A stretch of DNA of 64,000 nucleotides from an uncultured Acidobacteriota bacterium (GCA_963753035.1 CAVWAW010000010.1:466093-530092); one strand, 5' to 3'. Positions 7,801 to 41,816 are shown, numbered from the stretch's first letter. Notes: generated by a model not told the origin, from the sequence alone. Made by a program: numbers and translations.

Positions 7801-8073
7801 CCGACCAGGCCACGCGGAAAACCCCGCCCCATCGGGGTGCCGGGTCCGTTTTTGTGCAGGAGCGACCTCCCGACTACGCCTCGCCTCGCGCACAAAATGC
7901 GGACCGGGCTCCCCCGGGGAGCGCGATGCGGTCTGCTGTCCCGGCTACGAGCCAGGCCGCCGACGCGCCATCGGCGTGGTCGCAGTCCTCCCCGCAACCT
8001 CCGCGCGACCTCGCCGATGGTGCGACGCTGGGTCGTTGGGACGCATTGGCGTCACGGCGACCCAGAAGGCCGG
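7801..8073 (+). repeat. ~270-nt structured repeat, copy A
   Basis: Runs from gcggaaaaccccgccccatcggggtg to cccagaaggccgg; matches the other copies listed. Confidence 0.9.
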
Positions 8074-8136
8074 TGATGAGGGCAGCTACCGCGGCAGCGA
8101 CCGGGACAGAGGCCGCATCCAAATCCGTAAGCGACA

Positions 8137-8312
8137 AAACCAACCCGCATCGGTACACCACCATCGCCGGCGGGACGCCGGCGCTACAAACATCGCAGCG
8201 CCCTTTGTTGCGCTCACGATTCGTGTGCGATAGAACCAACCCGCAACGGCACTCCCCCGGGAGGCGCGCCACATCCTGGTTCTTCCGGCCACGAAGCAGG
8301 CCAGAAGGCCGG
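8137..8312 (+). repeat. GTAG-type REP pair unit fused to a truncated ~270-nt element
   Basis: aaccaacccgcatcggtacaccaccatcgccggcgggacgccggcgctac, followed by ctcccccgggag...gcaggccagaaggccgg. Confidence 0.75.
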
Positions 8313-8394
8313 TGACGATGGCAGAGTCCGGGGCAGCGGCAGGGGCAGGATTCAGCGACCGGGACCGCGGCAGTATCCGACGCCGTGACCGAAA

Positions 8395-8669
8395 CCGACC
8401 AGGCCACGCGGAAAACCCCGCCCCATCGGGGTGCCGGGTACGCCATTGTGCTGGAACCACCATCCCGGCTCCGCCCCGCGCCCCGCACAATGGCGCTACC
8501 GGGCTCCCCCGGGGAGCGCGATGCGGTCTGTTCTTCCGGCTACGAGGCAGGCCGCCGGCGCGCCATCGGCGGGGTCGCAGCCCTTTCAATCAACCCACGC
8601 GCGACCACGCCGATGGTGCGACGCTGGGCCGCCGGGACGCCAAAGCGTCCCAGCGGCCCAGAAGGCCGG
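8395..8669 (+). repeat. ~270-nt structured repeat, copy B
   Basis: Same ends and hairpins as copy A; stem 2 variant tacgccattgtgc/gcacaatggcgcta. Confidence 0.9.
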
Positions 8670-8740
8670 CGATGAGGGCATGGTCTCGGGGCCGCGGCAG
8701 CAACCAGGACAGAGGCCGCATCCGTATCTGTGGGCGATGG

Positions 8741-8850
8741 AACCAACCCGCATCGGTACACCACCATCGCCGGCGGGACGCCGGCGCTACAAACATCGCA
8801 GCGCCCTTTGTAGCGCCCACGTCTCGTGGGACAGGCATCCTGCCTGCCCT
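8741..8850. repeat. GTAG-type REP pair plus gggacaggcatcctgcctgccc hairpin
   Basis: gccggcgggacgccggcgCTAC...GTAGcgcccacgtctcgtggg; same unit as the 23082-23580 array. Confidence 0.8.
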
Positions 8851-8989
8851 TCACTCACCTACCGGCCGAGAAAGCGTCGCCACGAAGTCTGACACCCGCA
8901 GAAGCAACGCATCACCCATTCTCAATTGCGATGGCCTCGCGTCCTTTGCGATCTTTGCGGTGAAACTGCGATGCTGCGATGGCGCGACG

Positions 8990-10616
8990 TTATCTCGGTC
9001 GGTTGGCGACGAGCGCGAGGTCCTTCCGGCTCAACCGCTGCTCGTCGAGCACCGTCAGCCCTCGCGGACATCGGCCGGGACCTCGTCGAGTCTGGTCCGT
9101 TCTCACAATCGCGTAGACCAGGGCCTCCTGACGGAGGTGATCGGGCCAGCACATCGACATCGTCGGTCTCGACCGTGTAGAGCCCATCGGAGTAGAAGGC
9201 GACGGCGATGGGGATGTTGCCCGCGCGCCAGGCCACGACACGGTGACCCTCGGCCCGAGACTCGGCCGTGATCTCTTTGGTCTCGAGAGCGAATGTCCGC
9301 GACGACTTTCGCGGTTCCATGGCCGGGTAGACCAATGCGGTGGCGACGAGATAGAGAACGGCCATTCCAGCTGCGGTGGCCACCACCGAATCCAAGGCCC
9401 GGCCGCGCACCGCGGTGGCAAGAGCCGCCACTCCTGTGACCAGGAGAACCGCTCCAAGCAGATACACCATCCAACCGGGCAGATACTCGACACGGTCGCT
9501 CACGAACGGCACGGCGACTGCGACGAGGCGTAAAGAGCCCACCGACGATGGCCTGCCCGACGGTGACCCATCTTCGATCCGGGGTCGTGGCGTCCTCGAA
9601 CCCCTCCCGCCAGCCGGAGATCCGACCCACCAGAACCGCCATCATGAGCGCGATGGCCGGAAACGCCGGCAGGACGTAGAGATCACGCTTCTCGGTGGAG
9701 ATGGAGAAAAAGACCACGACAAAGACCGCCGCCACGAGGCAAAGTCGCAACCCCTCCGAGTTGCGTCGGTTCCTCCAGGCCACGACCAACGCCCCCGGCA
9801 GCAGCCCCGTCCACGGGAGCAGCGAGAGCGGCAACCGCTCGGCGTAGTACCAGAACGGCTGAACATGGTGCATCCCATGCATCCCCCGCTCGACAAAATG
9901 TTCGCGCAGCGCCCCGATCACCGAGTAGTCGGCAGGCCCCCAGAGCGTCGCCGCCATGGCCCACGCGCCGGTGACGAGAACAAAGACCAACGGTCCGAGC
10001 AGCGGGGCAAAACGTCGCAAGCGAACCGAGATCACGCTCCACCGCCAGAAAGACAATGACGATTCCCAGGGGGAGCAACAGACCCACCGGACCCTTGGCG
10101 AGAACCGCAAGGGCCGCGGCGCACCAGAAGAGCGCCCCGGCCCGCCGGCCGTCGGCATCGCCCGATCGCCAAGTCTGCGAAGGCCGAGAGCGCCACCCAG
10201 ATCAGAAAACACAGCAGCGAGTCGATCTGGGACCAGCGCGCCTTGTCCCAGAACATATAGGTGGTCGCCAGCAGCACCCCGGCGAGCGCGGCGGTCCTCG
10301 GACCGAACCATCGTCGACCCAGGCGCATGACCAGGACCAGGGTCCCAAGGGCGGCGAGTACCGACGGCAATCGAGCGGTGAACTCGGTGACGGCGCCCAG
10401 GGGCAGCGAGAAGATGGCGATCAACCAGAAAAACAGCGGTGGTTTGTGGCTGTTGACGACCCCGTTGACGTGGGTCACCAGCCACTGGCCGTCGACGAGC
10501 ATCTCGCGCGCGCCCTCGCCGAAGAAGGGCTCGTCCGGCGCCCACAGATCGTGCGCGCCGAGAAACCACAGGAAGATCACCGCGGCCAGGACGAGGACCA
10601 GACGTTCGGGCTTCAC
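8990..10616 (-). CDS. ArnT/PMT-like glycosyltransferase family 39 (frameshifted)
   Basis: DLWAPDEPFF, HKPPLFFW, ARLPS, LAKGPVG, HVQPFWYY, LPWT and KRDLYVLPAFP spread over several frames. Confidence 0.85.
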
Positions 10617-10742
10617 ATCGACACCCGGCTGACTGCGAGGGATGAAATTCAATGGTGATGATCATGGTCTGTGAAGTGTAGAACACCCGGTTGCGTGGTC
10701 GTTGATAGAATCCAATCGACACCGAGGAGGGTCCATCACACC

Positions 10743-12807: not shown

Positions 12808-12810
12808 TCG

Positions 12811-15368: not shown

Positions 15369-15483
15369 GGGTCTCGCCTCCAGATCGCCGGTCGGCGACG
15401 ATTTCACATCTCTTTATTGAGACAACCTCGCAATAGTACACGAAACCCTCTCCCATATGAGATTTGCGCCGTATCATGCATCA

Positions 15484-20972: not shown

Positions 20973-21401
20973 TCAGTTGACGAGGCCCTCATCGAAATCG
21001 AAACCCGGAAACTCCCCCCATCGGCGACATTCCTCCGGCGGCGGGTACGGACCGAGTGAGATCTGGCTCAGCTTCCCACCGATCACGTCGAACAGGACCG
21101 TCGCGAGCAGCAAACCGTCCTGTTCGATCAGCGCACAGGGTCTCCCCGGTGTGCCCACCGACGCTCCGGGGGTCTCGCCGATCTCGACTCGAACGACCGT
21201 CCCGGCGGATTCAAAGGTCGCGAACTTTGACTTCAGGTAGCCGAGATACCCATCCCGACCCACGAGGTCGTTGACCACCCACCGCGACATCACCCGCACA
21301 TCCTCCGCGAGGATCGGCGCCAACACCGATGGATCGTGGGTGTTGAACGCGCGCGCCCAGGCAAGGGCGGCGTCGCGTTCGGTGAGGGCGAACACGGTCA
21401 T
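20973..21401 (-). CDS. SnoaL/NTF2-like protein
   Basis: WARAFNTHDPSVLAPILAEDV...LVGRDGYLGYL; ATG at 21401. The upstream ORF extension runs into repeats. Confidence 0.65.
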   Translation of the reverse strand: MTVFALTERDAALAWARAFNTHDPSVLAPILAEDVRVMSRWVVNDLVGRDGYLGYLKSKFATFESAGTVVRVEIGETPGASVGTPGRPCALIEQDGLLLATVLFDVIGGKLSQISLGPYPPPEECRRWGEFPGFDFDEGLVN

Positions 21402-21419
21402 GGTCCATTGTCGCCGATC

Positions 21420-23647
21420 TCCCGGCTTCCGTGCCCGTTTCCGTGCCCGTGCCCGTGCCCGCACCAGGACACGCGGAAAACCGCGCCCATCGGGGTGCCG
21501 GGCATGGCTTTGTGCCAGAAGAACCTCACGGCGACGCGTCCCACTCCGCACAAGGTCCATGCCGGGCTCCCCCGGGACGCGCGATGCGGTCAGCTCTTCC
21601 GACTACGAGGTAGGCCGCCGGCGCGTCATCGGCGTGGTCGCAGCCCTCTCAATCAACCCACGCGCGACCACGCCGATGGTGCGACGCTGGGCCACCGGGA
21701 CGCCAATGCGTCACAGCGGCCCAGAAGGCCGGTGATGAGGAACACAGGAACCGCGACCGCATCCGGAGCAGTATCCGTGACCGTGACCGTGACCGCGTCC
21801 CGGCGCGCGATCGTCGACAGCCAGGATGGCTGTCGCTACACCACCCAGAACGGCCCCTGTGTAGCGATAGGCTTCCAGCCTGTCGACGGCAGTGGCAGAA
21901 GCCGACCCGGGCACGCGGAAAACCCCGCCCCATCGGGGTGCCGGGTCCGTTTTTGTGCAGGAGCGACCTCCCGACTACGCCTCGCCTCGCGCACAAAATG
22001 CGGACCGGGCTCCCCCGGGGAGCGCGATGCGGTCTGCTCTACCGGCGACGAGGCAGGCCGCCGGCGCGCCATCGGCGGGGTCGCAGCCCTCCCCGCAACC
22101 CCGCGCGACCACGCCGATGGTGCGACGCTGGGCCGCCGGGACGCCAAAGCGTCACGGCGGCCCAGAAGGCCGGTGCTGTGGGCATGGTCCGGAACAACGG
22201 CAGCGACCGGGACAGGGGCCGTGTCCATATCCGTAAGCGCATAGAACCAACCCGCGTCGGTACACCACCATCGCCGGCGGGACGCCGGCGCGTAGCAAGC
22301 GATCGCAGCGACCCCCTCGTCGGGCGCCGGGTACGCCATTGTGCTGGAACCGCCATCCGGCTCCGCCACCGCGCCCCGCACAATCGGCGCTACCGGGCTC
22401 CCTCGGGTACGCGCGATTGCAGGTCAGATCTTCCGGCTACGAGGCAGGCCGCCGGCGCGCCATCGGCGGGGTCGCAGCCCTTCCACATCAACCTCCGAGC
22501 GACACGCCGATGGTGCGACGCTGGGCCGCTGGGGACGCCAAAGCGTCACGGCGGCCCAGAAGGCCGGTGCTGGAGGAACACAGGAACCGCGACCGCATCC
22601 GGAGCAGTATCCGTGACCGTGACCGTGACCGCGTCCCGGCGCGCGATCGTCGACAGCCAGGATGGCTGTCGCTACACCACCCAGAACGGCCCCTGTGTAG
22701 CGATAGGCTTCCAGCCTGTCGACGGCAGTGGCAGAAGCCGACCCGGGCACGCGGAAAACCCCGCCCCATCGGGGTGCCGGGTCCGTTTTTGTGCAGGAGC
22801 GACCTCCCGACTACGCCTCGCCTCGCGCACAAAATGCGGACCGGGCTCCCCCGGGGAGCGCGATGCGGTCTACTCTACCGGCGACGAGGCAGGCCGCCGG
22901 CGCGCCATCGGCGTGGTCGCAGCCCTTCCAATCAACCCACGCGCGACCACGCCGATGGTGCGACGCTGGGTCGCCGGGACGCCAATGCGTCACGGCGGCC
23001 CAGAAGGCCGGCGCTGTGGGCATGGTCCGGAACAACGGCAGCGACCGGGACAGGGGCCGTATCCGTATCCGTGGGCGATAAAACCAACCCGCATCGGTAC
23101 ACCACCATCGCCGGCGGGACGCCGGCGCTACAAGCATCGCAGCGCTCCTTGTAGCGCCCACGTCTCGTAGGCGATAGAACCAACCCGCATCGGTACACCA
23201 CCATCGCCGGCGGGTACGCTGACGCCAACGACGATGGCAGCTCTCCTTGCACCCCCGACGCGATCCGTGGGCGATGGAACCATACGCCGCAGTCGGTACG
23301 CCACCATCGCCGGCGGGACGCCGGCGCTACGAAGCATCGCAGCGCCTCTTGTAGCGCCCACGTCTCGTGGGCGATGAACGAACCCGCGTCGGTACACCAC
23401 CATCGCCGGCGGGACGCCGGCGCTACAAGCATCGCAGCGCTCCTTGTAGCGCCCACGTCTCGTGGGCGATTGAACCAACCCGCGTCGGTACACCAACATC
23501 GCCGGCGGGACGCCGGCGCTACAACCATCGCAGCGCCCCTTGTAGCGCCCACGTCTCGTGGGCGATGGAACCAACCCGCATCGGCGCTCCCCCGGGACGC
23601 GCGATGAGGTCTGCTCTACCGGCACAGAGGTAGGCCGCCGGCGCGCT
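21420..23647 (+). repeat. 2.2-kb composite non-coding repeat array: ~270-nt copies C (21463-21732), D (21902-22173), E (22311-22567), F (22738-23011), partial (23585-23647), REP pairs and hexamer linkers
   Basis: Direct comparison of copies; a block from about 21730-22230 recurs 836 bp downstream. Confidence 0.9.
23082..23580. repeat. Tandem array of five ~96-bp REP-pair units (BIME/REPIN-like)
   Basis: Unit starts at 23082, 23178, ~23278, 23377, 23473 and 23569. Units carry gccggcgggacgccggcgCTAC and GTAGcgcccacgtctcgtgggcg; unit 2 is degenerate. Confidence 0.85.
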
Positions 23648-23710
23648 ATCTGCGGTTTCTCCGAGCGATGGATCCAGCATCCAGCATCCGGTATCGAGTA
23701 TCCTTCCCCG

Positions 23711-24923
23711 ATGAATCGCGTCACCCAAGTCCTTGCAACGACCAACGAGATCAGCCTCAAGGGCGGCAACCGCAAGTGGTTCGAGCGGAAGTTGACCGAA
23801 AACGTCCGGCGCGCCCTGGCTGACCTCCCCGTCGCCGCGGTCACCCGACCGGCATGGCGGGTCCTCATCAGCTTCTCCAAACCGGTCGACTTCGCCGAAG
23901 CCGCGCGCCGGTTGCATACGGTCTTCGGTCTCGGCGCCATCATGGCCGTGGAGCACGCCGGATTCACCATGGCCGATCTCGAGGCCGCCATCGAACCTCA
24001 GCTCGAAGGTCTCTCACCCGCCACCTTCGCGGTCCGCTGCCTTCGCTCCGACAAGACCTTCCCCATGACGACGCCCGAGATCGAGCGCTCGTTGGGTTCG
24101 TTTGTCCAGGACAAGACCGGCTGGCCGGTCAGGCTGAGTGGTCCCGATCTCACCATTCACGTTCTGGTCGATGAGAACGGGCATCTTCACTTGGACCAAG
24201 AGAGTCCCCGGACCCGGCGGCCTCCCCGTCGGGGTGGGCGGCCGAGCCTGCTGCCTGCTCTCGGGCGGGATCGACTCTCCGGTCGCCGCCTACATGATGA
24301 TGAAGCGTGGGATGCGACTCGATTTCGTCCATTTCCATTCGGTCCCTCGCACCGATCCGGCGAGCCTCGAAAAGGTCCACGATCTGGTGCGGGTTCTCAA
24401 CCGCTACCAGGGTCAAGCTCGACTCGCCATGGTTCCCCTGCTCGAGATTCAGGAACAGATCGCGGCCCGGTGTCCGGCCCCGCTCAGGGTCCTGCTCTAC
24501 CGCCGGTTCATGTTCCGGCTCGCCCAACGGGCGGCGCACCGATTCAACGCCCGCGCGCTGGTCACCGGCGAGAGCCTCGGCCAGGTGGCGTCCCAGACCA
24601 TCGAGAACATGGCGGCCATCGAGGCCGTGACATCGCTTCCGGTGCTCAGACCGCTCATCGGTCTCGACAAACAACAGATCATCAACATCGCCAGGATGGC
24701 CGGTTCATTCGAGCTTTCGATCCTCCCCCACTTCGACTGCTGCTCCTTCCTCATGCCCGAGAACCCCGCCACCAAGTCCTTCGCCGATGAACTCGACGCC
24801 GCCGAGGCGGGACTCGATGTCGACAGCCTGGTCGCCGATGCCATCGAACGAACGGAGATCTTCCGCATCAAAGACGCCGTCGCCTGGGAGGAGATCCCCA
24901 TCCCCGAGGAAGCTGCGGTATGA
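23711..24923 (+). CDS. thiI: tRNA 4-thiouridine synthase ThiI (no rhodanese domain; one frameshift ~24170)
   Basis: EISLKGGNRKWFE, THUMP region, GPGGLPVG, LLSGGIDSPVA, TGESLGQVASQT, RPLIGLDK, DCC. Confidence 0.92.
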
Positions 24924-25552
24924 GCGAGAAAAACCGATCCTCCCGTCGCGACTTTCTCACCTCGTGGTTCGACACCTTCCGCGATGCCTCCAAGGTCGTC
25001 GCCAAGGCCGGGAAACCGGACCCCGCCAAAGTACTTCGACCACCCGGCGCCCTCGCCCCCGACGATGGCTTTCTCGCCGCCTGCACCCGGTGCGGTGACT
25101 GCATTCCGGTCTGTCCGGTCGAGGCCATCATCACGATCGAGGAAGAGGACGGACGAAAGCTGCCCGCCATCAACCCGAACGTCAAACCGTGCCGCCTGTG
25201 CGACGATCTCCCGTGCATCGCCGCGTGTCCCGATGGCGCCCTTGTCGCCCCCGAGGGTGGTCCGGAGCGAGTCCGAATCGGCATCGCCAAGGTCGATCCG
25301 AGGCATTGCATCACCTTCAAAGGCGAACTCTGCACCCGCTGTTACGACGCGTGCCCCTATCCCGACAAAGCACTCATGATGATCGGCTGCCGGCCTCTCG
25401 TCGGATCGGGCGCCTGCACCGGCTGCGGTCTCTGCGAGTTCGCCTGTCCCACCCACCCGAAAGCCATCGTCATCGTGCCCGAGCGCGATCTCGTGCCCGG
25501 GCTCCGGGTTCCGCGGAACGAGTACACGGGTCCGGACAAGTGGATGGGGTAG
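24920..25552 (+). CDS. NapG/MauM/NapF-like 4x[4Fe-4S] ferredoxin-type protein
   Basis: SRRDFL, LRPPGA, CTRCGDCIPVCP, CRLCDDLPCIAACP, C..ELCTRCYDACP, CTGCGLCEFACP. Confidence 0.88.
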   Translation: MSEKNRSSRRDFLTSWFDTFRDASKVVAKAGKPDPAKVLRPPGALAPDDGFLAACTRCGDCIPVCPVEAIITIEEEDGRKLPAINPNVKPCRLCDDLPCIAACPDGALVAPEGGPERVRIGIAKVDPRHCITFKGELCTRCYDACPYPDKALMMIGCRPLVGSGACTGCGLCEFACPTHPKAIVIVPERDLVPGLRVPRNEYTGPDKWMG

Positions 25553-25948
25553 CGGGCCGCCGCTTCGCGCCCGCCCGCTACCCCAATTATGAATTCTCAA
25601 TTATGAATTTTGAATTTCATCGCAGGGCTGCGGAGCGTATGGCGTTCTGACTGACAGAAAGCGCGAAACGTGCTTGACCGTTTCCGTTAGCGGAGCAGCG
25701 TCCGAGGCAGCGGCAGACGCCAGCGACAGGAGCCGGCGTCCGGGGCAGCGCCAGGAATCAGCGTCAGGAAACAGCGACAGCAATCAGGGGCAGTCATCAG
25801 CGATCGATGCGCCCTCCTGGACCCGATGTCCATCGGTCACCTCCGGGTCGTTCAGGAGCGGTGATTAGTCGATGTGAAGTCCGAGCCATGACCTGGCGGT
25901 TGGTCAACCCTACACCGTGAGGCGATTTCTCCGTAGCCTCCATTGCGA

Positions 25949-26320
25949 GCGGAAAACCCCGCCTCAACGGGGTGCCGGGTCCGTTTTTGTGCAGCAACGA
26001 CCTCTCGGCACCGCCTCGCCTCGCGCACAAAATGCGGACCGGGCTCCCCCGGGGAGCGCCATGAGGTCAGCTCTCCCGGCTACGAGGCAGGCCACCGGCG
26101 TACCATCGGCGTGGTCGCAGCCCTCCCAATCAACCCACGAGCGACCACGCCGATGGTGCGACGCTGGGCCGCTGGGACGCATCAGTGTCACAGCGGCCCA
26201 GAAGGCCGGTGCCGAGGGCAGGGTCCGTATCCGCGGGCGATAGAACCAACCCGCATCGTTACACCACCATCGCCGACGGGACGTCGGCGCTACAAGCGTC
26301 ACGGCGGCCCAAAAGGCCGG
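25949..26320 (+). repeat. ~270-nt structured repeat copy H (25949-26209) plus REP unit
   Basis: gcggaaaaccccgcctcaacggggtg...cccagaaggccgg, then gccgacgggacgtcggcgctac. Confidence 0.88.
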
Positions 26321-26346
26321 CGTTGAGGACAGGATCGGGCGTCGCG

Positions 26347-27348
26347 TTAGAGCTGCGTCTCGACCTTGAGCTGGCGGGTCATGAGCTCCTTGAGGGCGTC
26401 TTTGGGGTCGATCTGGCCGGTCAGAATCCGCGCCATGCTCTGGGTGATGGGCATCTCGACCCCGAGCTTGGTGGCGAGTTTGGCGGCTGCCGGAGTCGTC
26501 CTCACGCCTTCGGCGACCTCCCGCATGGAGCCGAGAATCTCGTCGAGAGACTCCCCTCGCCCGAGGCGTTGGCCGACCTGGCGGTTGCGCGACAGGCCTC
26601 CGGTGCAGGTCAGCACGAGGTCGCCCATCCCGGCGAGACCGCGGAAGGTGTCCGGCTCGGCGCCGAGGGCAACTCCAAGGCGGGTGTTCTCGTGCAGACC
26701 GCGGGTCATGAGGGCGGCCTGGGTGTTGGCGCCCAACCCGAGACCATCGATGATCCCGGCGGCGATGGCCACGGTGTTCTTCAAAGCACCGGCCAACTCG
26801 ACACCGATGAGATCACCTCCCGCATAGCACCGGAGGTGGTAGTCCGAGAACTCCTCCTGGAGCCTGCGTGCGAGATCCATGTCCCGGCAGGCGAGGACGG
26901 CGGCCGACGGATCGCCGCGCACGACTTCGATGGCGAAGGTCGGCCCGGACAGACAACAAAACCTCTCCTCGGGGATGCCCAACGCATCCGCCGCCAACTC
27001 ATCCATTCGCCGCAGACTCTCGGTTTCGATTCCCTTGGACGCCGATACCACAACCGTTTCAGGCCGCAGATACGGTGCGAGCCGTTCCATCACCGCGCAA
27101 CTGAATTGGACCGGCACCACCCAGATCCAGACATCGGCGTGAATCGCCGCTGCCTCGAGATCGCTGGTGCTTCTGATCGCAGGGTGGAGTTCGGCATCGG
27201 TGAGGAAGATCGGGTTCCGGTGATCGGCGTTGATTCCTGCGGCAACCTCGGGCTCGAGCGCCCACAGCAGCACATCGTGCCCGCGGCGGGCCATCTGATG
27301 TGCAAGAGCGCAGCCCCAGGAACCGGCACCGAAAACGGTGATCTTCAT
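26347..27348 (-). CDS. gpsA: NAD(P)H-dependent glycerol-3-phosphate dehydrogenase
   Basis: GAGSWG, SASKGIE, LSGPTFA, GALKNTVAIAAG, GLAGMGDLVLTC, SRNR. Confidence 0.95.
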   Translation of the reverse strand: MKITVFGAGSWGCALAHQMARRGHDVLLWALEPEVAAGINADHRNPIFLTDAELHPAIRSTSDLEAAAIHADVWIWVVPVQFSCAVMERLAPYLRPETVVVSASKGIETESLRRMDELAADALGIPEERFCCLSGPTFAIEVVRGDPSAAVLACRDMDLARRLQEEFSDYHLRCYAGGDLIGVELAGALKNTVAIAAGIIDGLGLGANTQAALMTRGLHENTRLGVALGAEPDTFRGLAGMGDLVLTCTGGLSRNRQVGQRLGRGESLDEILGSMREVAEGVRTTPAAAKLATKLGVEMPITQSMARILTGQIDPKDALKELMTRQLKVETQL

Positions 27349-27351
27349 GCA

Positions 27352-27954
27352 CTACCTCCAGAATCCGGGACCGAGACGCTGCTCTTTCCCAGTGACAAGA
27401 TTGCGGATGTTCGAATGGTGTCGAAGGATGATCAGGATGGCCGCCGCAGCAACCGATGCAAGGGTGACCCAGTCGGGGTGATCCAGCAACTGGATGAGAA
27501 CCGGAAAGCTCGCCGTGGCCGTCATGGATGCCAGTGAAACCCACCGGAAGAGCCCCAACATTACGATCCACACTCCGAAAGCCGCTGCCGCGCTCAACGG
27601 GGCGATCACCAGGAAGGCGCCGAACCCGGTTGCCACCCCCTTGCCGCCACGAAAAAGGAGCCACGGCGGGAAGCAGTGGCCAGCAACGACCGCCAACATA
27701 GACGCAGCCAGCCAGGCGCTTTCGGGGTTGAAGATCATCATCGCCCAAACCGCCAGCGAACCCTTGGCAATATCGAGCACGGTGACCGCTACACCGACCT
27801 TCCACCCCGCCGATCGAAGGGCGTTGGTGGCGCCGACGTTGCCCGATCCCTCACGGCGGACATCGCGGCCGGTGACGTAGCGAACGAATATGTAGGCAAA
27901 AGGGATCGAGCCCACGAGGTAGGCAAATCCTACGAGTGCAAGCTCAACCATCAT
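27352..27954 (-). CDS. plsY: Glycerol-3-phosphate acyltransferase PlsY
   Basis: YLVGSIPF, GSGNVGATN, DIAKG, GHCFP..FRGGKGVAT, RHHSNI. Confidence 0.95.
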   Translation of the reverse strand: MMVELALVGFAYLVGSIPFAYIFVRYVTGRDVRREGSGNVGATNALRSAGWKVGVAVTVLDIAKGSLAVWAMMIFNPESAWLAASMLAVVAGHCFPPWLLFRGGKGVATGFGAFLVIAPLSAAAAFGVWIVMLGLFRWVSLASMTATASFPVLIQLLDHPDWVTLASVAAAAILIILRHHSNIRNLVTGKEQRLGPGFWR

Positions 27955-32571: not shown

Positions 32572-32588
32572 CAGAACTCTGACACTTC

Positions 32589-32620
32589 AACGGGCCCGCT
32601 CTCATGAGCGGGCCCGTTTT
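32589..32620 (+). terminator. Rho-independent terminator
   Basis: aacgggcccgctc-tcat-gagcgggcccgtttt after the stop codon. Confidence 0.8.
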
Positions 32621-34505: not shown

Positions 34506-34517
34506 GAAGAGCAGAGC

Positions 34518-35247: not shown

Positions 35248-35255
35248 GCTTCCCC

Positions 35256-37007: not shown

Positions 37008-37029
37008 GAATGCAGGACTGGAGCAGAGT

Positions 37030-37950
37030 GTGAACCAGATCATCGCCGCCATCCCCAATATCTGCGAGGGCACCGATTCGGTTTTCATCAACGAGATCAC
37101 CGACCGGCTCAGAGGGATCACCAATCTGATCCTCCTCGATGTCGCCATGGACCACGCCCGCAACCGGACGATCTTTTCATTCACCGGCACCAAGGAGGCG
37201 ATCTTCGAGGGCGGCCTCGCGCTCTACGAGCAGGCCCTCGACCGCATCGACATGCGCCACCACGTCGGCGAGTTCCCGAGGGTCGGCGCCGTCGATGTCT
37301 TCCCCTTCGTTCCCCTGAAGAACGCCACCATGAAGGAGGCCAAGGTCTGGGCGGACGAGTTCGCCGAACTCGTGGCCAAGCGATTCAACCTCCCCGTCTA
37401 CCTCTACGCCGAGTCCGCCCGCTATCGTTACCGGCGCGACATCGACAACATCCGTCAGGGCGAGTACGAGGGCCTCGAGGCCAAGATGCAGGATCAGCGC
37501 TGGAAACCCGATCTGGGACCCGATCGTTTTCCCGCCGCATCGGGAGTCACCATCATCGGCGCCCGTTATCCGCTGCTCAGCTTCAACGTCTTTCTCGGCA
37601 GCCGGGACGAGTCCATCGCCCATGCCGTGGCCCACGAGATCGCCGACACCTCGGGCGGCATCGTCCGCGCCCACGGCGCCCTCGATCCCGCCACCGACCG
37701 AGCGATGTTGTCGGTGGCCATCACCAACTTCAAGGCGTCGCCGCTCTATCGGACCGTGGAGAACATCCGTCTCGAGGCCGCCCGCTACGGTGTCGATATC
37801 CGCCGGATCGAGCTCATCGGTCTGATCCCGGAGCGCGTTCTCATCGAGGCTGCCGAGTACTACCTCAGGATCCACGGTTTCGACCACAAGAACCTGCTCG
37901 AGAAGAACATCCAGCGGCATATCGACAAGAGTTTCACGTTTGGGGAGTAG
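37030..37950 (+). CDS. ftcD: Glutamate formiminotransferase-like protein (divergent active site)
   Basis: IPNICEG, IDMRHHVGEFPRVGAVDVFPFVP, LPVYLY, IRQGEYEGL, PDLGP, GAR. Confidence 0.8.
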   Translation: MNQIIAAIPNICEGTDSVFINEITDRLRGITNLILLDVAMDHARNRTIFSFTGTKEAIFEGGLALYEQALDRIDMRHHVGEFPRVGAVDVFPFVPLKNATMKEAKVWADEFAELVAKRFNLPVYLYAESARYRYRRDIDNIRQGEYEGLEAKMQDQRWKPDLGPDRFPAASGVTIIGARYPLLSFNVFLGSRDESIAHAVAHEIADTSGGIVRAHGALDPATDRAMLSVAITNFKASPLYRTVENIRLEAARYGVDIRRIELIGLIPERVLIEAAEYYLRIHGFDHKNLLEKNIQRHIDKSFTFGE

Positions 37951-37970
37951 GCCCTCTCATCCCGGCAACG

Positions 37971-38044
37971 CGATGGGAGCGGATGCCAGGCACACAACTT
38001 TGTTCGCGGCGAACAAAGGTTGGAGCCAGGCACCGATCCCGCGA
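37971..38044. repeat. ~72-bp palindromic element, copy 1
   Basis: gccaggcac-acaactttgttcgcggcgaacaaaggttg-gagccaggcac; second copy at 39525-39595. Confidence 0.8.
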
Positions 38045-38115
38045 TACCGAATCGCCGCTGGACCGAGGTACAATCTCGCCGCTCAGTAACACATCGACTC
38101 TCCGGAGGATTCTGA

Positions 38116-39639
38116 ATGCCAAACGTCACCCGCACCATGGCCGAGTGGGCCGCATCCGTGAACTACGAGGATCTGCCGGCCGAGGTCGTGACCGAAGCCA
38201 AGCGCTTTCTCATGGACTCCGTGGGTTGCGCCCTGGGCGGCGCCCAGCAGCACGACGTCCACATCGCCCGAGAGGTCCTCGGCGAGTGCGCCGGATCGGG
38301 CGACGCCACGGTGCTCGTCACCGGCGAAAAATGGGATCCGGTCTCGGCATCGTTGCTCAACGCGCTCATGATCCGGGTGATGGACTACAACGACATCTAC
38401 TGGAAACAGGATCCGTCGCACCCGTCGGACATCATCCCGGCCGCCATGGCCGCCGCCGAACGCGGCGGGCCGATCGGGCCGCGATCTCCTGGTCGGCATC
38501 GCGCTGGCCTACGAGTTCGAGCAGCGTCTGTGCGAGGTGAGCTTTCCGGGCGTCCGCGAGATCGGCTGGCACCACGCCACCCTGACCGCCGCCGCCTCGC
38601 CCATCGTCGCCGGCCGGATGCTCGGTCTCACCGCCGAGCAGATCCAGCACGCCATCGGCATCTCGGCCTCGCGCCACTGCACCACGGGATCGGTGACCGC
38701 CGGCAAGCTCACCATGATGAAGAACACCGTCGACCCCATGGCGACCCAGTCCGGGGTCATCGCCGCGCTCCTCGCCGAGAAGGGCTACACCGGGCCCGAG
38801 CACGTCCTCGACGGCAAGGAGGGTTTCAGCCACGTCTTCTCGACCGAGTGGAAGTTCCCGATTCTCACCGACGGTCTCGGTGAGAGCTGGCGGATCCTCC
38901 AGTGCGGAATGAAGTTCTTCCCCACCGAGGCTCTGACCCACGCGCCCATCTCGGCCACCCTGGATCTCGTCAATGGACAACGATCTGGCGGCAGACGAGG
39001 TCGAGACGGTCACCATCTATTCGCTGGCGCGGGCGGCCGACATCCTCGCCGACCCATCCAAATACGATCCCCGCACCAAGGAGACCGCCGACCACTCCCT
39101 GCCCTATGTCATCGCCGCAGCGGTGGCCGACCGGCAGGTGACGCCGCTCCAGTTCACCGACGCCAAGATCATGGACGAGAAGATCCGCGCCCAACTGCCC
39201 AAGGTCAAGGTCATCGCCGACCCCGAGATCGAGGCGGTCTTCCCCGAACTCCAGCGGGTGCGGGTGGTGATCAGAACCACCGACGGCCGCGAGGTCGACA
39301 AGAGAACTCGACTACCCCAAGGGCGATCCTCGCAATCCGCTGACCAACGACGAGATCTCGGGCAAGTTCAAGGCCCTCGCCGAGGGCATCGCCACCGCCG
39401 AAGACGTCGAGCGGATGCAGGCGGCGATCAATCGGACGGAGGAGTTCGACGATGTACGGGAGTTGATGGGACAGTTGACAGTGTGCACCGTGATAGATCA
39501 GATCACGAGAGCTCCGCGGGAAGGCGATGGGACGGGAGCCAGGCACGCAACTTTGTTCGCGGCGAACAAAGTTGGAGCCAGGCACCCAGTCGCGACGGAA
39601 AGGACAGGAGGGCGAAGGAATGCCACAGACGATCACTGA
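38116..39639 (+). CDS. prpD: MmgE/PrpD family protein (frameshifted; 3' end uncertain, ~39495-39639)
   Basis: DSVGCALG, RVMDYND, HPSD, GWHHAT, MKFFPTEALTH, TKETADHSLPY, YPKGDPRNPL. Confidence 0.85.
39525..39595. repeat. ~72-bp palindromic element, copy 2
   Basis: caactttgttcgc-g-gcgaacaaagttg flanked by gccaggcac direct repeats. Confidence 0.8.
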
Positions 39640-41563
39640 GAAGGTAGTTCAGGCGCACGCGGTCGGCTTGCCCGATGGCGCCGAGGTGCTCGCGGGCGAC
39701 ATGGTCACGGTCCGCCCCGCGCATGTGATGACCCACGACAACACCGGGGCGGTGCTGCCAAAGTTCCGCACCATCGGCGCGGAGCACGTGGCGGATCCCC
39801 GGCAGCCGGTCTTCGCCCTCGACCACAACGTCCAGGACCGGACCGAAGCCAACCTCGAGAAGTACGCCAAGATCGAGGCGTTCGCCCGCGAAGAGGGGAT
39901 CGTCTTCCACCCGGCGGGGGCCGGGATCGGCCACCAACTCATGATCGAGAACGGCTTTGTCCACCCTGGCGCACTGGTCGTCGCCTCGGACTCCCACTCC
40001 AATATGTACGGCGCGGTAGGCGCCGTCGGGACCCCGGTCGTGCGCACCGACGCCGCCGCCATCTGGGCGACCGGCGTCTCCTGGTGGCAGGTGCCGCGGT
40101 CGGTCAAGGTCGTGCTCGATGGCAAGCTCCGGGCGGGAGTCACCGGCAAGGATGTCATCATCACCCTCTGCGGGCTCTACAACTCGGGCGAGGTGCTCAA
40201 CGCCGCGGTGGAGTTCCACGGCCCCGGTGTCGCAACTCTGTCCATGGACGACCGGATGACGATCTCCAATATGACCACCGAATGGGGGGCGTTGGTCGGA
40301 TGGTTCGGTTACGACGAGACGACCTCGCACTATCTGCGCGGACGCGCCGCAGTCCTCGAACTCCTCGAGATCGAGGACCGCCTCACCGGTGAAATGATCG
40401 CTGAGTGGGACGCCAACCCGCCGCTTCCGGACGAAGACGCCGCCTACGCCGCCGAGATCGTCCTCGATCTGCGAAAGGTCTCACCCCATGTCGCCGGGCC
40501 CGACAGTGTCAGCGTCATCCGGTCGGTGGCCGATATCGCGGAAGAGAGGCTGCCGATTCAAAAGGCGTATCTTCTGTCGTGCGTCAACTCCCGCCTCGAC
40601 GATCTCGCCGAGGCAGCCGACGTGCTCCGCGGCCGCAGAGTCGCCGATGAGGTCGAGCTCTACGTCGCTGCCGCCTCGGAATCGGTCCAGACCGAGGCCG
40701 AAGCCAAGGGGATCTGGCGGGATCTGATCAAGGCGGGAGCGCGGGCGCTGCCCCCCGGCTGCGGCGCCTGCATCGGTCTCGGGGTCGGGCTGCTCGAGGC
40801 CGGCGAGGTGGGGATCTCGGCGACCAACCGCAACTTCAAGGGGCGGATGGGTTCACGCGACGCCGAGGCCTATCTGGCCAGCCCGAGCGTGGTCGCGGCA
40901 TCGGCGCTGGCCGGGTTCATCACCGGTCCCGACGATTTCGGTTCGTCGCTGCCAAAATACAATTTCACCGATCTCGGCTGGACGCCGCCGGCTCGGGAGG
41001 TAGCCATCCTCGACGGCTTCCCCGAACGCATGGAGGGACGCGTCCTTCTGCTGCCCGTGGATAGCCTCAACACCGATGGAATTTACGGCAAGGACGTCAC
41101 CTACCGCGACGATCTCACCCCCGATCAGATGGCGGGCTACGCCATGGCTAACTACGACCCCGCCTTCCAGGAGGTCGCGGCCGAGGGCGACATACTCGTT
41201 GCCGGACGCAACTTCGGCACCGGCTCCTCGCGCGAGCAGGCCGCCACCGCGCTCAAATACCGTGGCATCCGCATGGTCATCGCGGCGAGCTTCTCCCAGA
41301 CCTATCTCAGGAACGCGTTCAACAACGCCTTTGTCTGCATCGAGTCACCCGCGCTGGCGAAGGCGATCCTCGCCGCATTCGATGCCGAAGCCAAGGCGGG
41401 AACCAAGACGATTCCGGCCGGCGGTCTGGCAGTGGACTTCAAACGGGCAATCGCCACCTGGAACAACGAGGAGTACAAGCTCTCCCCGGTTGGTCCCGCA
41501 GCCCAGGAACTGATCCTCGCCGGAGGGCTCGAGGCGCTGACAAAGGCGCGGCTGAGGGGGTAA
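39620..41563 (+). CDS. Fused aconitase-family hydro-lyase (homoaconitase Lys4/LysF-like)
   Basis: MTHDNT, LDH, GIGHQ, SDSHSNMYG, SCVNSR, PGCGACIGLG, SATNRNFKGRMG; swivel domain NTDGIY and NFGTGSSREQA in the same ORF. Confidence 0.88.
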   Translation: MPQTITEKVVQAHAVGLPDGAEVLAGDMVTVRPAHVMTHDNTGAVLPKFRTIGAEHVADPRQPVFALDHNVQDRTEANLEKYAKIEAFAREEGIVFHPAGAGIGHQLMIENGFVHPGALVVASDSHSNMYGAVGAVGTPVVRTDAAAIWATGVSWWQVPRSVKVVLDGKLRAGVTGKDVIITLCGLYNSGEVLNAAVEFHGPGVATLSMDDRMTISNMTTEWGALVGWFGYDETTSHYLRGRAAVLELLEIEDRLTGEMIAEWDANPPLPDEDAAYAAEIVLDLRKVSPHVAGPDSVSVIRSVADIAEERLPIQKAYLLSCVNSRLDDLAEAADVLRGRRVADEVELYVAAASESVQTEAEAKGIWRDLIKAGARALPPGCGACIGLGVGLLEAGEVGISATNRNFKGRMGSRDAEAYLASPSVVAASALAGFITGPDDFGSSLPKYNFTDLGWTPPAREVAILDGFPERMEGRVLLLPVDSLNTDGIYGKDVTYRDDLTPDQMAGYAMANYDPAFQEVAAEGDILVAGRNFGTGSSREQAATALKYRGIRMVIAASFSQTYLRNAFNNAFVCIESPALAKAILAAFDAEAKAGTKTIPAGGLAVDFKRAIATWNNEEYKLSPVGPAAQELILAGGLEALTKARLRG

Positions 41564-41816
41564 TCCCGCCACCTCGGGGTGCCGGGCACGCCATTGTGCC
41601 GGAACGAACCCCCGGCACCGCGACACGCTGCGCACAATGGCGCTGCCGGGCTCCCCCGGGAGGCGCGATCCGGTCTGCTCTCCCGGCTACGAGGCAGGCC
41701 GCCGGCGTGCCATCGGCGTGGTCGCAGCCCTCTCAATCAACCCACGCGCGACCACCCCGATGGTGCGACGCTGGGTCGCCGGGACGCCAATGCGTCCCAG
41801 CGGCCCAGAAGGCCGG
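41564..41816 (+). repeat. ~270-nt structured repeat, copy I (5'-trimmed)
   Basis: Starts at the aconitase stop codon; stem variant cacgccattgtgc/gcacaatggcgctg; ends cccagaaggccgg. Confidence 0.88.

What the first reader, a model, noticed from the sequence alone, without database searches (positions are those of the whole stretch)
7801..41816. Family of ~270-nt multi-hairpin elements with covarying stems, all co-oriented: candidate novel structured RNA or ssDNA mobile element
Seen: 8 near-full copies (7801, 8395, 21463, 21902, 22311, 22738, 25949, 41564) and 2 partial copies (~8250, ~23585), all on the + strand and all intergenic. Each has the same ordered hairpins. H1 is accccg/cggggt, H2 a long stem, H3 gctcccc/ggggagc and H4 gcggtctgc/gcaggccgc. 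Then ccgg...ccgg encloses H5 (gccatcggcg.ggtcgc/gcgaccacgccgatggt) and H6 (ctgggccgc..gacgc/gcgtc..gcggcccag). Stems change compensatorily. H2 is tccgtttttgtgc/gcacaaaatgcgga in A/D/F/H, tacgccattgtgc/gcacaatggcgcta in B, catggctttgtgc/gcacaaggtccatg in C and cacgccattgtgc/gcacaatggcgctg in I. H6 is gggtcg/cgaccc in A versus gggccg/cggccc in B/D. Loops vary freely. Recurrent mismatches in H4 and H5 are G-T on the + strand, which suggests that strand is the folded one. No terminal inverted repeats, obvious target duplication or transposase gene were seen. Inference: selection acts on fold rather than sequence, as expected for an ncRNA or for a non-autonomous element moved by a structure-recognising (HUH/RAYT-like) enzyme. 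I do not recognise it as any known family.
Basis: partly seen in the sequence, partly recalled or inferred. Interest (0 to 1): 0.85.

Follow-up and report, generated by a model that had tools for sequence, protein, structure and literature searches.

The report
Structured 270-nt mosaic repeat family
A 270-base, multi-hairpin DNA repeat fills about 1% of this uncultured soil acidobacterium's genome, always between genes and pointing one way relative to DNA replication; it looks like a large, unusual relative of the REP/BIME repeats known from other bacteria, not a recognised RNA gene.

Summary
The window holds 8 full and 2 partial co-oriented copies. The 6.05-Mb genome holds 319 nhmmer hits, 246 of them at least 200 nt. 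All 11 other species of the genus have the element, as do 28 of 77 genomes of the family. Nothing in Rfam matches.

Covariation strongly supports the long stems H2, H4, H5 and H6.

Orientation ignores neighbouring genes but follows the replichore in 101 of 135 single-orientation clusters. The element sits in co-oriented mosaics with GTAG-tagged REPIN-like modules, hexamer microsatellites and Avd-like four-helix-bundle (PF05635) genes. 19 of 24 such genes have a copy just downstream. Its bottom strand carries REP-type GTAG tags and lies on the lagging-strand template.

Best reading (confidence 0.45): a new, large module of a REP/BIME-class, non-autonomous repeat system. It would be maintained through strand-specific folded DNA at replication forks. 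No cognate enzyme was found.

Rivals are a top-strand structured RNA tied to the PF05635 genes, and a host-exapted polar DNA element. No expression data could be obtained.

The parts
7808..8078 (+). Element E, full copy A
   Evidence: R1 match, 277.5 bits, model positions 1-272; lies directly after my gene call 7081-7779 (+)
8110..8200 (+). D5 module: REPIN-like pair of inverted GTAG-tagged hairpins (hairpin-CTAC ... GTAG-hairpin)
   Evidence: the repeat finder family D5; sequence read; GTAGCGCC at 8180-8187 (-)
8246..8310 (+). Partial E: H3/H4 segment joined to the 3' end
   Evidence: seen by eye in the sequence; not listed by nhmmer
8402..8674 (+). Element E, full copy B; its H2 carries GTAGCGCC on the bottom strand
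   Evidence: R1 match, 271.6 bits; GTAGCGCC at 8492-8499 (-)
8713..8803 (+). D5 REPIN-like module
   Evidence: GTAGCGCC at 8783 (-) and 8810 (+)
21467..21737 (+). Element E, full copy C
   Evidence: R1 match, 275.1 bits
21738..21908 (+). D4 spacer module: (CCGTGA)n-like hexamers plus an inverted pair of GTAG-tagged hairpins
   Evidence: the repeat finder D4: 21737-22036 and 22573-22872 are 100% identical; sequence
21909..22178 (+). Element E, full copy D
   Evidence: R1 match, 281.2 bits
22217..22307 (+). D5 REPIN-like module, diverged
   Evidence: 63% identity to the reference copy
22297..22572 (+). Element E, copy with a divergent 5' end
   Evidence: R1 match, 173.8 bits; GTAGCGCC at 22386 (-)
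22573..22744 (+). D4 spacer module, second copy
22745..23016 (+). Element E, full copy F (best match to the model)
   Evidence: R1 match, 298.5 bits; folds
23054..23535 (+). Run of D5 REPIN-like modules with about 96-nt spacing
   Evidence: D5 copies at 23054, 23349 and 23445; eight GTAGCGCC sites in alternating strands at 23124-23549
23584..23658 (+). Partial E (H3-H4 region) fused to the last D5 module
   Evidence: nhmmer hit at C10:489676-489750, HMM positions 94-168; sequence
25796..25942 (+). Gene-deleted remnant of a 'short' PF05635 unit: the 5'-UTR hairpin arm is joined to the last codons of the gene at a shared GAAGTCCGA, then a linker leads into E
   Evidence: sequence compared with the alignment; 5'-UTR nhmmer hit at C10:491898-491977 with no gene and with E 64 nt downstream
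25943..26214 (+). Element E, full copy G; 96.6% identical to the copy at the orthologous site of a related species
   Evidence: R1 match, 290.3 bits; ortholog comparison
26216..26306 (+). D5 REPIN-like module
   Evidence: GTAGCGCC at 26286 (-)
41550..41821 (+). Element E, full copy H, directly after my gene call 39572-41563; the orthologous sites in G001 and G010 are also occupied
   Evidence: R1 match, 247.6 bits

Best explanation
Element E is a roughly 270-nt non-coding, non-autonomous repeat module of a REP/BIME-class mosaic repeat system. The system is specific to one genus, plus a few sister genera, of uncultured Acidobacteriota.

Shown:
- E has about 250 copies per genome and is intergenic.
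- It is conserved as a four-long-hairpin fold, with compensatory changes in H2, H4, H5 and H6.
- It is arranged head-to-tail with GTAG-tagged REPIN-like modules and hexamer microsatellites.
- It is oriented by the direction of replication, not by neighbouring genes.
- Copies persist at orthologous sites across species, and other sites show turnover.

Inferred mechanism: copies are made and kept through one DNA strand that folds when single-stranded at the replication fork. The bottom strand carries GT[AG]G tags next to hairpins and lies on the lagging-strand template. I propose that a Y1/HUH (RAYT-class) enzyme acting in trans recognises it there, as proposed for REP/BIME sequences. Arrays then grow by local duplication. 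Some copies have probably been taken over by the host. The enzyme itself has not been identified.
For: Abundance and dispersal
- 319 nhmmer hits, 246 of them at least 200 nt.
- Only 2 of the 246 have their midpoint inside my gene calls.
- For 169 of 216 copies the most similar copy lies more than 3 kb away. Adjacent copies are nevertheless more alike than average: 88.4% against 80.5%.
- 137 of 144 neighbour spacings under 1.5 kb are same-strand, with a peak at 400-500 nt.

Fold
- 88.1% of cells pair, against 75.2% in shuffles.
- 79 of 90 pairs change on both sides.
- By helix, pairs with changes on both sides are H2 14 of 18, H5 19 of 20 and H6 13 of 14.

Replication polarity
- 196 of 246 copies have the top strand on the C-rich strand.
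- By cluster the count is 101 against 34, with 8 mixed; p = 7e-9.
- GC skew is uniform over contigs of up to 590 kb. It is uncorrelated with gene strand (r = -0.05) and flips sign at dnaA.
- Gene context is unbiased: 47 convergent, 39 divergent, 27 and 33 co-directional loci.

REP context
- The D5 module is a CTAC...GTAG hairpin pair.
- D5 has 262 genomic hits. 172 lie within 400 nt of an E copy, and 167 of those are co-oriented with it.
- GTAGCGCC occurs 14 times in the window against 1.2 expected by chance, and 620 times in the genome.
- The same 8-mer heads H2 on the bottom strand of 61 of 216 E copies, against 5 on the top strand.
- GT[AG]G sits at the bottom-strand foot of H2 in 69 of 216 copies and in the H4 loop in 126 of 216.
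- The subset with GTAG at the H2 foot is oriented 63:6, against 109:38 for the rest.

Y1 enzymes in this genome and in the literature
- The genome has a classical small RAYT flanked by its own GTAG REPIN arrays and other PF01797 genes.
- Passages of PMC6006769 state that canonical REPs carry a 5' GT[AG]G at the hairpin foot, and that Y1 enzymes act on the lagging-strand template.
Against: - None of 9 PF01797 loci has an E copy within 5 kb. Their flanks carry other repeats: GGTGCCAGG-type motifs or GTAGGGGTGGGG REPINs.
- GTAGCGCC is absent from the three Y1 loci searched.
- Canonical IS200-type TnpA (E <= 1e-30) was found in only 4 of the 11 other genus genomes, and not in G000.
- Only 32% of copies carry GT[AG]G at the H2 foot. 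The excess of C[CT]AC on the top strand is partly compositional.
- The four family-consensus G-T wobble pairs are on the top strand, with no consensus A-C pair. The top strand folds slightly better: it is the more stable strand in 132 of 216 copies. That strand is the leading-strand template, the opposite of what a lagging-template ssDNA mechanism predicts.
- No two copies are identical. The highest identity is 98.9% and the median to the nearest copy is 92%. So there is no sign of recent bursts.
- No empty site with sharp ends could be recovered. Ends and target are therefore undefined.
- In 7 of 10 orthologous pairs examined, E is more conserved than both flanking gene ends, reaching 99.2% against 84-91%. 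This fits a host or RNA function at least as well.
- All 15 clustered PF05635 genes have E downstream in the sense orientation.
Confidence: 0.45

Rival explanations
1. E is a structured RNA, with the top strand as sense. It would be transcribed with, or next to, Avd-like four-helix-bundle (PF05635) genes as their 3' partner, for example a protein-binding or stabilising 3' domain or a ribonucleoprotein component. The many solo copies would be dispersed relics or independently working copies.
For: - 15 of 15 clustered PF05635 genes are co-oriented with E. A copy starts 26-29 nt (5 genes) or 256-268 nt (9 genes) after the stop codon; in the fifteenth the nearest copy overlaps the called ORF.
- 19 of 24 PF05635 hits have a co-oriented E 46-559 nt downstream, and none has an opposed one in that range.
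- The same arrangement occurs in relatives whose E is only about 70% identical: L108 (G009), L113 (G004) and others.
- The genes are under purifying selection, with a median dN/dS of 0.22 over 100 pairs.
- There are four consensus G-U pairs on the top strand and none as A-C.
- Unpaired columns are A+C-rich (63%) on the top strand.
- The 3' domain, including the H5 loop, is at least 90% conserved.
- Some orthologous copies are more conserved than the neighbouring genes.
- PF05635 resembles DGR Avd (passage of PMC10053308).
Against: - Orientation is independent of neighbouring genes. 33 loci have both neighbours on the opposite strand.
- No sigma-70-like promoter and no intrinsic terminator were found in 21300-26400, apart from one unrelated promoter-like site on the opposite strand.
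- The top strand is the lagging strand, so transcription would run head-on into replication.
- Only about 20 of about 250 copies have the gene. The 5'-UTR motif of the gene unit occurs without a gene at only 5 places.
- G024 has at least 25 E matches and no PF05635 hit. G006 has at least 25 E matches and 2 PF05635 hits.
- The same PF05635 subfamily is high-copy in genomes without E.
- Without the 4 fixed wobble pairs, G-T against A-C is 37:37 by pair.
Confidence: 0.22
2. E is the cis-acting 3' terminal part of a mobile unit that carries the PF05635 gene, laid out as hexamer tract, structured 5' UTR, gene, then E. It would be analogous to the TIR-bounded 960-bp PF05635 units of genus g3. Solo E copies would be gene-less derivatives of that unit.
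For: - In G056 the same PF05635 subfamily sits in sharply bounded units of about 960 bp. These have roughly 27-bp terminal inverted repeats and AACGTTNAACGT on both sides, in 11 aligned loci of the 13 fetched.
- In the window, 25796-25942 is a unit whose gene was deleted between two GAAGTCCGA repeats, leaving the 5' UTR, a linker and E.
- The hexamer tracts next to E resemble the region upstream of the gene in both genera.
Against: - Only 3 gene-less 5'-UTR remnants with E downstream were found, among 40 5'-UTR hits.
- In the 'long' units the 255-nt spacer is nearly identical among 9 loci, while the E behind it belongs to different H2 subtypes. So gene unit and E are not inherited strictly together.
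- Several genomes have E with few or no PF05635 hits.
- The G056 inverted-repeat motif is not linked to E in G000 (a noisy one-mismatch search).
Confidence: 0.13
3. E is a host-exapted, polar DNA element of chromosome architecture. It would be a multi-site binding platform for nucleoid or replication proteins, kept in one orientation per replichore by selection. Its hairpins would be a side effect of palindromic binding sites.
For: - Replichore-wide polarity.
- Retention at orthologous sites across species at up to 99% identity.
- Genus-wide vertical presence.
- No identifiable mobilising enzyme.
Against: - Palindromic protein sites would keep sequence, not covary. H2 exists in at least four unrelated sequence versions with pairing kept.
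- 25% of clusters are in the 'wrong' orientation.
- In 13 of 20 orthologous-position pairs the orthologous copy is not the best match, which indicates turnover.
- Copy number varies widely, and tandem arrays are typical of selfish repeats.
Confidence: 0.1
4. E is a retro-mobilised element, analogous to a SINE or a DGR RNA. A reverse transcriptase working with the Avd-like protein would copy the RNA, leaving simple-repeat tracts at the junctions.
For: - Avd-like genes are linked to E.
- Hexamer microsatellites flank many copies.
Against: - RVT_1 was found in only 7 of 12 genomes of the genus.
- The G000 hit is sub-threshold and lies at a contig end.
- E-rich genomes G003 (99% complete), G009, G002, G007 and G006 gave no hit.
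- The 5' boundary of E is sharp rather than variably truncated.
Confidence: 0.04

Closest known systems
REP / REPIN / BIME repeats with RAYT (TnpA-REP) transposases
   Same: - High copy number and extragenic position.
- Vertically persistent within a lineage.
- Hairpin-forming.
- Mosaic clusters with other short motifs.
- GT[AG]G tetranucleotide beside hairpins.
- A single-copy Y1 gene flanked by its own REPs exists in this genome.
The definition of these features is taken from passages of PMC6006769 and PMC3733652.
   Different: - E is about 270 nt with four long stems and two multi-helix domains, not a 20-40-nt palindrome.
- Modules are co-oriented head-to-tail, not alternating.
- Only a third of copies carry the tag at the H2 foot.
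- No cognate RAYT was found.
- I found no statement on replichore polarity of REPs in the passages read.
IS200/IS605-derived non-autonomous elements (palindrome-associated elements)
   Same: - No inverted terminal repeats and no target duplication.
- Hairpins recognised as single-stranded DNA.
- Orientation tied to the lagging-strand template (PMC6006769 passages).
   Different: - No TnpA or TnpB gene carries E ends. Canonical TnpA was not found in G000.
- The ends and the target tetranucleotide are not defined.
- The strand with the fixed wobble pairs is the leading-strand template.
Modular structured intergenic repeats such as pneumococcal BOX or enterobacterial ERIC elements
   Same: Repeats of 100-300 nt, modular, strongly folded, intergenic and of unclear mobilisation.
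   Different: - Unrelated sequence.
- Those are described as oriented with transcription units.
- E follows replication and is linked to REPIN-like modules.
PF05635 / TIGR02436 four-helix-bundle genes (23S rRNA intervening-sequence protein; DGR Avd-like)
   Same: - The linked genes match PF05635 (E = 9e-18) and TIGR02436, and PDB entries 2GSC and 2RLD.
- Like the rRNA intervening-sequence ORFs, they sit inside strongly folded non-coding sequence (passage of 10.1101/2024.02.27.582315).
   Different: - Here the genes are not in rRNA.
- There is no reverse transcriptase beside them.
- The partner sequence E also exists about 230 times without the gene.

Membership tests
Canonical REP | Short (20-40 nt) imperfect palindrome | tested here: not met
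   E is 272 model positions with 90 base pairs in 12 helices. Single hairpins of E might qualify; E as a whole does not.
Canonical REP | 5' GT[AG]G at the foot of the hairpin | tested here: inconclusive
   On the bottom strand it is present at the H2 foot in 69 of 216 copies and in the H4 loop in 126 of 216. GTAGCGCC is on the bottom strand of 61 of 216 copies against 5 on the top. Composition bias contributes.
Canonical REP / REPtron | Cognate RAYT gene flanked by the same repeats | tested here: not met
   None of 9 PF01797 loci has E within 5 kb. Their flanks carry other motifs. No GTAGCGCC in L083, L084 or L089. The assembly is 91% complete, so a missed gene is possible.
BIME | Mosaic clusters of REPs, in inverted pairs, with other conserved motifs | tested here: inconclusive
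   E clusters with D5 and D4 modules that each hold an inverted GTAG hairpin pair. The modules as wholes are co-oriented, 167 of 172.
MITE (DDE-type) | Terminal inverted repeats and target-site duplication | tested here: not met
   The ends GCGGAAAACC... and ...GAAGGCCGGTGATG are not inverted copies of each other. No duplication was seen at 21 solo copies. In contrast, the PF05635 units of G056 do have both.
IS200/IS605-type non-autonomous element | Orientation bias with the active strand on the lagging-strand template | tested here: inconclusive
   The bias is strong: 101 against 34 clusters. Which strand is active is unresolved: the GTAG tags are on the lagging-strand template, the fixed G-T pairs on the other strand.
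IS200/IS605-type non-autonomous element | A family TnpA present in the genome whose IS ends match the element | tested here: not met
   No PF01797 match at E <= 1e-30 in G000, and such matches in only 4 of the 11 other genus genomes. No E lies beside any Y1 gene.
Any Rfam 15 RNA family | Match at the gathering score | tested here: not met
   No matches over the whole window. At E <= 1 over 21400-23700 there are 7 matches, all far below their gathering scores.
Retroelement RNA (DGR or retron-like) | Reverse transcriptase gene in the same genomes or loci | tested here: not met
   RVT_1 in 7 of 12 genus genomes. The G000 hit scores 23.8 bits, below the cut-off, at a contig end far from any copy.
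Independent ncRNA gene | Own promoter or terminator, and a transcript | not testable with these tools
   The consensus scan found no promoter-like or terminator-like site in or beside the copies, but it covers only sigma-70-type signals. No transcript data were available.

The most novel reading that the evidence does not exclude
E is the first cis-linked nucleic-acid partner of the orphan Avd-like four-helix-bundle (PF05635, 'rRNA intervening-sequence protein') family. Gene and structured element would form a reverse-transcriptase-less selfish or regulatory ribonucleoprotein (or protein-ssDNA) module. The roughly 230 gene-less copies would be trans-served satellites of about 20 protein-coding masters. 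This would give a testable function to a protein family present at up to 50 or more copies per genome in these bacteria.
Probability: 0.15. Interest if true: 0.8.

Novelty: new variant of a known kind. Interest (0 to 1): 0.55.

Why it matters
If the main reading holds, REP/BIME-type repeat systems would extend to a much larger, multi-domain folded module in a poorly studied phylum. It would also carry an unusually clean replichore polarity. That gives a natural system for asking how single-strand-specific enzymes, or replication itself, shape long-lived intragenomic repeats.

The element makes up about 1% of the genome (246 copies of about 265 nt in 6.05 Mb) and is diagnostic for one genus. 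It therefore matters for assembling, binning and annotating these soil metagenome genomes. Copies turned up on short contigs labelled as other phyla.

The fixed link to Avd-like four-helix-bundle genes is the most unexpected part. It could open that orphan family to experiment.

Tried and rejected
Known RNA family. Rfam gave nothing at the gathering score, and only sub-threshold chance-level matches at E <= 1.

Protein-coding repeat. The copies differ by single-base indels, and my codon-model gene calls avoid them.

RAYT flanked by E. Rejected for the 9 loci examined.

Retroelement. Disfavoured.

Phage or plasmid origin. The invariant 19-mer has no exact match in viral contigs. blastn against the plasmid collection found nothing.

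Empty sites, to define ends and target.
- The two best candidates were examined.
- One was too diverged to align outside the element.
- The other held degraded partial copies.
- So no boundary or target could be called.

G056-type inverted repeat in G000. A one-mismatch search gave 289 mostly random hits and no link to E. It was uninformative.

Expression. The look-up of sequencing runs, kind rna, over window 24900-27400: no RNA holder listed.

Literature.
- Searches were made for PF05635/four-helix-bundle, REPIN/RAYT/lagging strand and Acidobacteria plus REP/MITE/intergenic repeats.
- None of the listed titles or abstract openings, and none of the passages I opened from five papers, describes this element.
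- These three searches do not show that it is unpublished. Supplementary files were not seen.

My first gene finder called spurious ORFs inside the repeats. It was replaced by the finder.

The first wobble count (1248 against 537) overstated strand asymmetry. One search shows that 4 consensus positions drive it.

Full report
OBSERVATION

The repeat is real. The repeat finder recovers the family in the window: D1 with 7 copies of 288 nt, and D3 with 9 copies of a 79-nt core. It also finds two further repeat families, D5 and D4, that lie between the copies.

An alignment of eight copies has 82% mean column identity and long invariant blocks. A covariance model (R1; 272 positions, 90 base pairs) was built from seven window copies. 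It finds eight full-length matches in the window, all on the + strand, at 7808, 8402, 21467, 21909, 22297, 22745, 25943 and 41550.

The two partial copies exist. 23584-23658 is an nhmmer hit. About 8246-8310 is seen by eye.

None of the copies overlaps my codon-usage gene calls. Rfam 15 has no match at gathering scores over the window. At E <= 1 it gives only chance-level matches.

SCALE AND DISTRIBUTION

The window is C10:466093-530092 of a 6.05-Mb, 34-contig genome.

- An HMM of the core gives 319 hits with E < 1e-3.
- 246 hits are at least 200 nt long, about 1% of the genome.
- They lie in 150 intergenic loci. Only 2 have their midpoint inside my gene calls.
- Copies are old and diverse. 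Mean pairwise identity in core columns is 80.5%. The median identity to the nearest copy is 92%, and the maximum is 98.9%.
- They are often in head-to-tail arrays. 137 of 144 spacings under 1.5 kb are same-strand, with a peak at 400-500 nt.
- Adjacent copies are more alike than average (88.4%). Yet for 169 of 216 copies the closest relative is more than 3 kb away. Both local duplication and dispersal have therefore occurred.

BLAST finds the element in 15 of 41 related genomes. The covariance model finds it in 28 of 77 genomes of the family. That includes all 11 other species of the genus, and 7 of 24 genera.

Exact matches to an invariant 19-mer fall mostly on contigs titled 'uncultured Acidobacteriota'. 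A few full copies sit on short contigs labelled as other phyla, which looks like mis-binning. Nothing was found in viral contigs or plasmids.

STRUCTURE

One copy folds with z = -5.1 on the top strand and -2.6 on the bottom strand.

I counted pairs on 54 model-aligned matches (51 distinct) from many species:
- 88.1% of cells pair, against 75.2% in shuffles (0 of 500 shuffles reach it).
- 79 of 90 pairs change on both sides, against 40.5 in shuffles.
- There are 430 compensated cells, against 107 in shuffles and 76-116 when partners are slid.
- The long stems carry this signal. Pairs with changes on both sides are H2 14 of 18, H5 19 of 20 and H6 13 of 14.
- Caveat: this alignment is fitted to the model.

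A long-range pairing of the same bases does somewhat better.

The 3' domain (H5 with its loop, and H6) is at least 90% conserved in sequence. The 5' hairpin H2 is variable with pairing kept.

WHICH STRAND FOLDS

The first count looked clear: G-T 1248 against A-C 537. But four family-consensus G-T pairs account for most of it. Without them the count is 711 against 534, and the per-pair sign test is 37:37.

For the top strand:
- 4 fixed G-T pairs, against 0 fixed A-C pairs.
- A small energy advantage: the top strand is more stable in 132 of 216 copies.
- A+C-rich unpaired columns.

For the bottom strand:
- It carries the REP-type tags. GT[AG]G sits at the foot of H2 in 69 of 216 copies and in the H4 loop in 126 of 216.
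- The 8-mer GTAGCGCC is on the bottom strand of 61 of 216 copies, against 5 on the top.

The question stays open.

ORIENTATION

Orientation is unrelated to neighbouring genes: 47 convergent, 39 divergent, 27 and 33 co-directional loci, and 4 mixed. It follows GC skew.
- 196 of 246 copies have the top strand on the C-rich strand.
- By cluster the count is 101 against 34.

The skew is replichore-scale:
- It is uniform over contigs of up to 590 kb.
- It is uncorrelated with gene strand (r = -0.05).
- It flips from negative to positive at dnaA on C23.
- The 23S rRNA gene lies on the G-rich strand.

So the top strand is the lagging-strand sequence, and the bottom strand is the lagging-strand template. 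Copies with GTAG at the H2 foot are the most polarised, 63:6.

CONTEXT: A MOSAIC

D5 is a pair of inverted GTAG-tagged hairpins, laid out as hairpin-CTAC ... GTAG-hairpin. That is a REPIN-like doublet.
- It has 262 genomic hits.
- 172 lie within 400 nt of an E copy, and 167 of those are co-oriented with it.

D4 holds another such pair plus (CCGTGA)n hexamers. GTAGCGCC occurs 14 times in the window against 1.2 expected by chance.

Passages of PMC6006769 and PMC3733652 define canonical REPs by a 5' GT[AG]G at the hairpin foot. They also describe BIMEs, REPtrons and Y1 enzymes acting on the lagging-strand template.

The genome has a textbook small RAYT flanked on both sides by its own GTAGGGGTGGGG REPIN arrays. 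It also has five Y1 genes of roughly 330 aa (four of 324-332 aa called, a fifth seen only as a 394-aa open frame) and a sixth, shorter one of 171 aa. Five of these (the four called ones and the 171-aa one) were checked and carry inverted GGTGCCAGG-type motifs on their flanks.

None of the 9 Y1 loci has E within 5 kb. Three of them were searched and lack GTAGCGCC.

THE FOUR-HELIX-BUNDLE GENES

Clustering the proteins encoded near copies gave a 15-member family of about 124 aa. It matches PF05635 (23S_rRNA_IVP, E = 9e-18) and TIGR02436, and weakly PDB 2GSC and 2RLD. A review passage relates PF05635 to DGR Avd (PMC10053308).

- All 15 genes are co-oriented with E. A copy starts 26-29 nt (5 genes) or 256-268 nt (9 genes) after the stop; in the remaining one the nearest copy overlaps the called ORF.
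- Of 24 PF05635 hits in the genome, 19 have a co-oriented E 46-559 nt downstream.
- The arrangement recurs in relatives, including species whose E is only about 70% identical.
- The paralogues are under purifying selection, with a median dN/dS of 0.22.

Against a strict gene-element partnership:
- This PF05635 subfamily is high-copy throughout the family, also where E is absent.
- In G056 it rides in roughly 960-bp units with inverted terminal repeats and flanking AACGTTNAACGT.
- G024 and G006 have many E copies but 0 and 2 PF05635 hits.
- In the 'long' units a nearly identical 255-nt spacer is followed by E copies of different H2 subtypes.
- The 5' UTR of the gene unit occurs without the gene at only 5 of 40 hits. 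One of these is in the window at 25796-25942, where the gene was lost between two GAAGTCCGA repeats.

PERSISTENCE

I paired 46 G000 loci with loci of relatives. 39 pairs hold at least one copy on both sides. This figure is biased, because the relatives' loci were fetched for holding E.

Among 20 single-copy pairs at orthologous positions:
- 7 are mutual best matches, at 85-98.5% identity.
- 11 rank 2nd to 239th.
- 2 gave no match at all.

In the 10 best-ranked pairs, E is more conserved than both 300-nt gene flanks in 7. For example, 99.2% against 84.0% and 91.3%, and 98.5% against 85.0% and 87.7%. It is less conserved than at least one flank in 3. So some copies are under strong constraint while other sites turn over.

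INTERPRETATION

The weight of evidence places E in the REP/BIME class of long-lived, non-autonomous, fold-dependent intergenic repeats. It would be a new, much larger module. Its replication polarity points to a single-strand step at the fork (confidence 0.45).

The enzyme is not identified, and the strand evidence conflicts. This keeps three rivals alive:
- a top-strand RNA tied to the Avd-like genes (0.22);
- E as the terminal part of a PF05635-carrying mobile unit (0.13);
- a host-exapted polar DNA element (0.10).

Retro-mobilisation is unlikely (0.04), because reverse transcriptase is missing from 5 of 12 genus genomes. No RNA run could be listed, so expression is untested (see Tried and rejected).

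Noticed in passing
G056 loci L159-L171 (for example L160:1065-2030): The PF05635 four-helix-bundle gene sits in a dispersed unit of about 960 bp (84-98% identical among 13 loci). It has roughly 27-bp imperfect terminal inverted repeats (GGTTCATCCGG...) and AACGTTNAACGT on both sides. This is a TIR-bounded, transposase-less element whose only cargo is this gene. Genomes of the family hold up to 53 or more such genes.
   Followed up: partly
G000 C3:35400-37400 (locus L088): A classical REPtron: a small Y1 (RAYT) ORF flanked on both sides by tandem REPIN doublets with GTAGGGGTGGGG...CCCCACCCC hairpins. That family has 21 genomic hits, none of them near E.
   Followed up: partly
G000 C10:80476-81450, C6:62176-63174, C32:2326-3312, C7:375755-376741, C10:67469-67984: Five Y1_Tnp genes: four of about 330 aa, and one shorter one of 171 aa at C10:67469-67984. 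Each is bracketed by short AT-richer inverted motifs of the GGTGCCAGG / CCTGGCACC type. They resemble the 'TIRYT' group that PMC3733652 reports for Acidobacteria (passage).
   Followed up: partly
G000 loci upstream of 'long' PF05635 units, for example C27:14600-15030; in the window at 21420-21465 and 21775-21800: Long hexanucleotide microsatellites, (CCGTGA)n or (CCGTGG)n, of up to several hundred bases abut the units. On the bottom strand a GGAG-N6-ATG is followed by an open (Ser-Arg)n-type frame through the microsatellite. Unexplained.
   Followed up: no
window 25553-25948: This 394-nt intergenic stretch is 98.7% identical to its ortholog in L055, more than the flanking genes (91-93%). It holds an AT-rich direct repeat (aattatgaatt...), a hexamer tract and the gene-deleted PF05635-unit remnant.
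   Followed up: partly
G000 5' UTRs of PF05635 genes, for example C10:371970-372120 (- strand): A perfect hairpin with a stem of about 26 bp (GTCGATGTGAAGTCCGATTTCAAGGG...CCCTTGAAATCGGACTTCACATCGAC) lies immediately before the ribosome-binding site of each linked four-helix-bundle gene.
   Followed up: no
L046, L052, L026 (public contigs): Full or cut E copies (up to 251.8 bits) lie on short contigs binned as Ilumatobacteraceae, Gammaproteobacteria and Acidimicrobiaceae. These are probably mis-binned acidobacterial contigs.
   Followed up: no
G000 C28:110292-111024: Five tandem copies of a 183-nt unit containing an inverted GGTTCAA/TTGAACC motif. Not examined.
   Followed up: no
G001:C32:53135-53506: A PF05635 copy in another species is 100% identical in protein sequence to G000 C10:371598-371969, although the neighbouring genomes differ by about 10-15% in coding DNA.
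   Followed up: no
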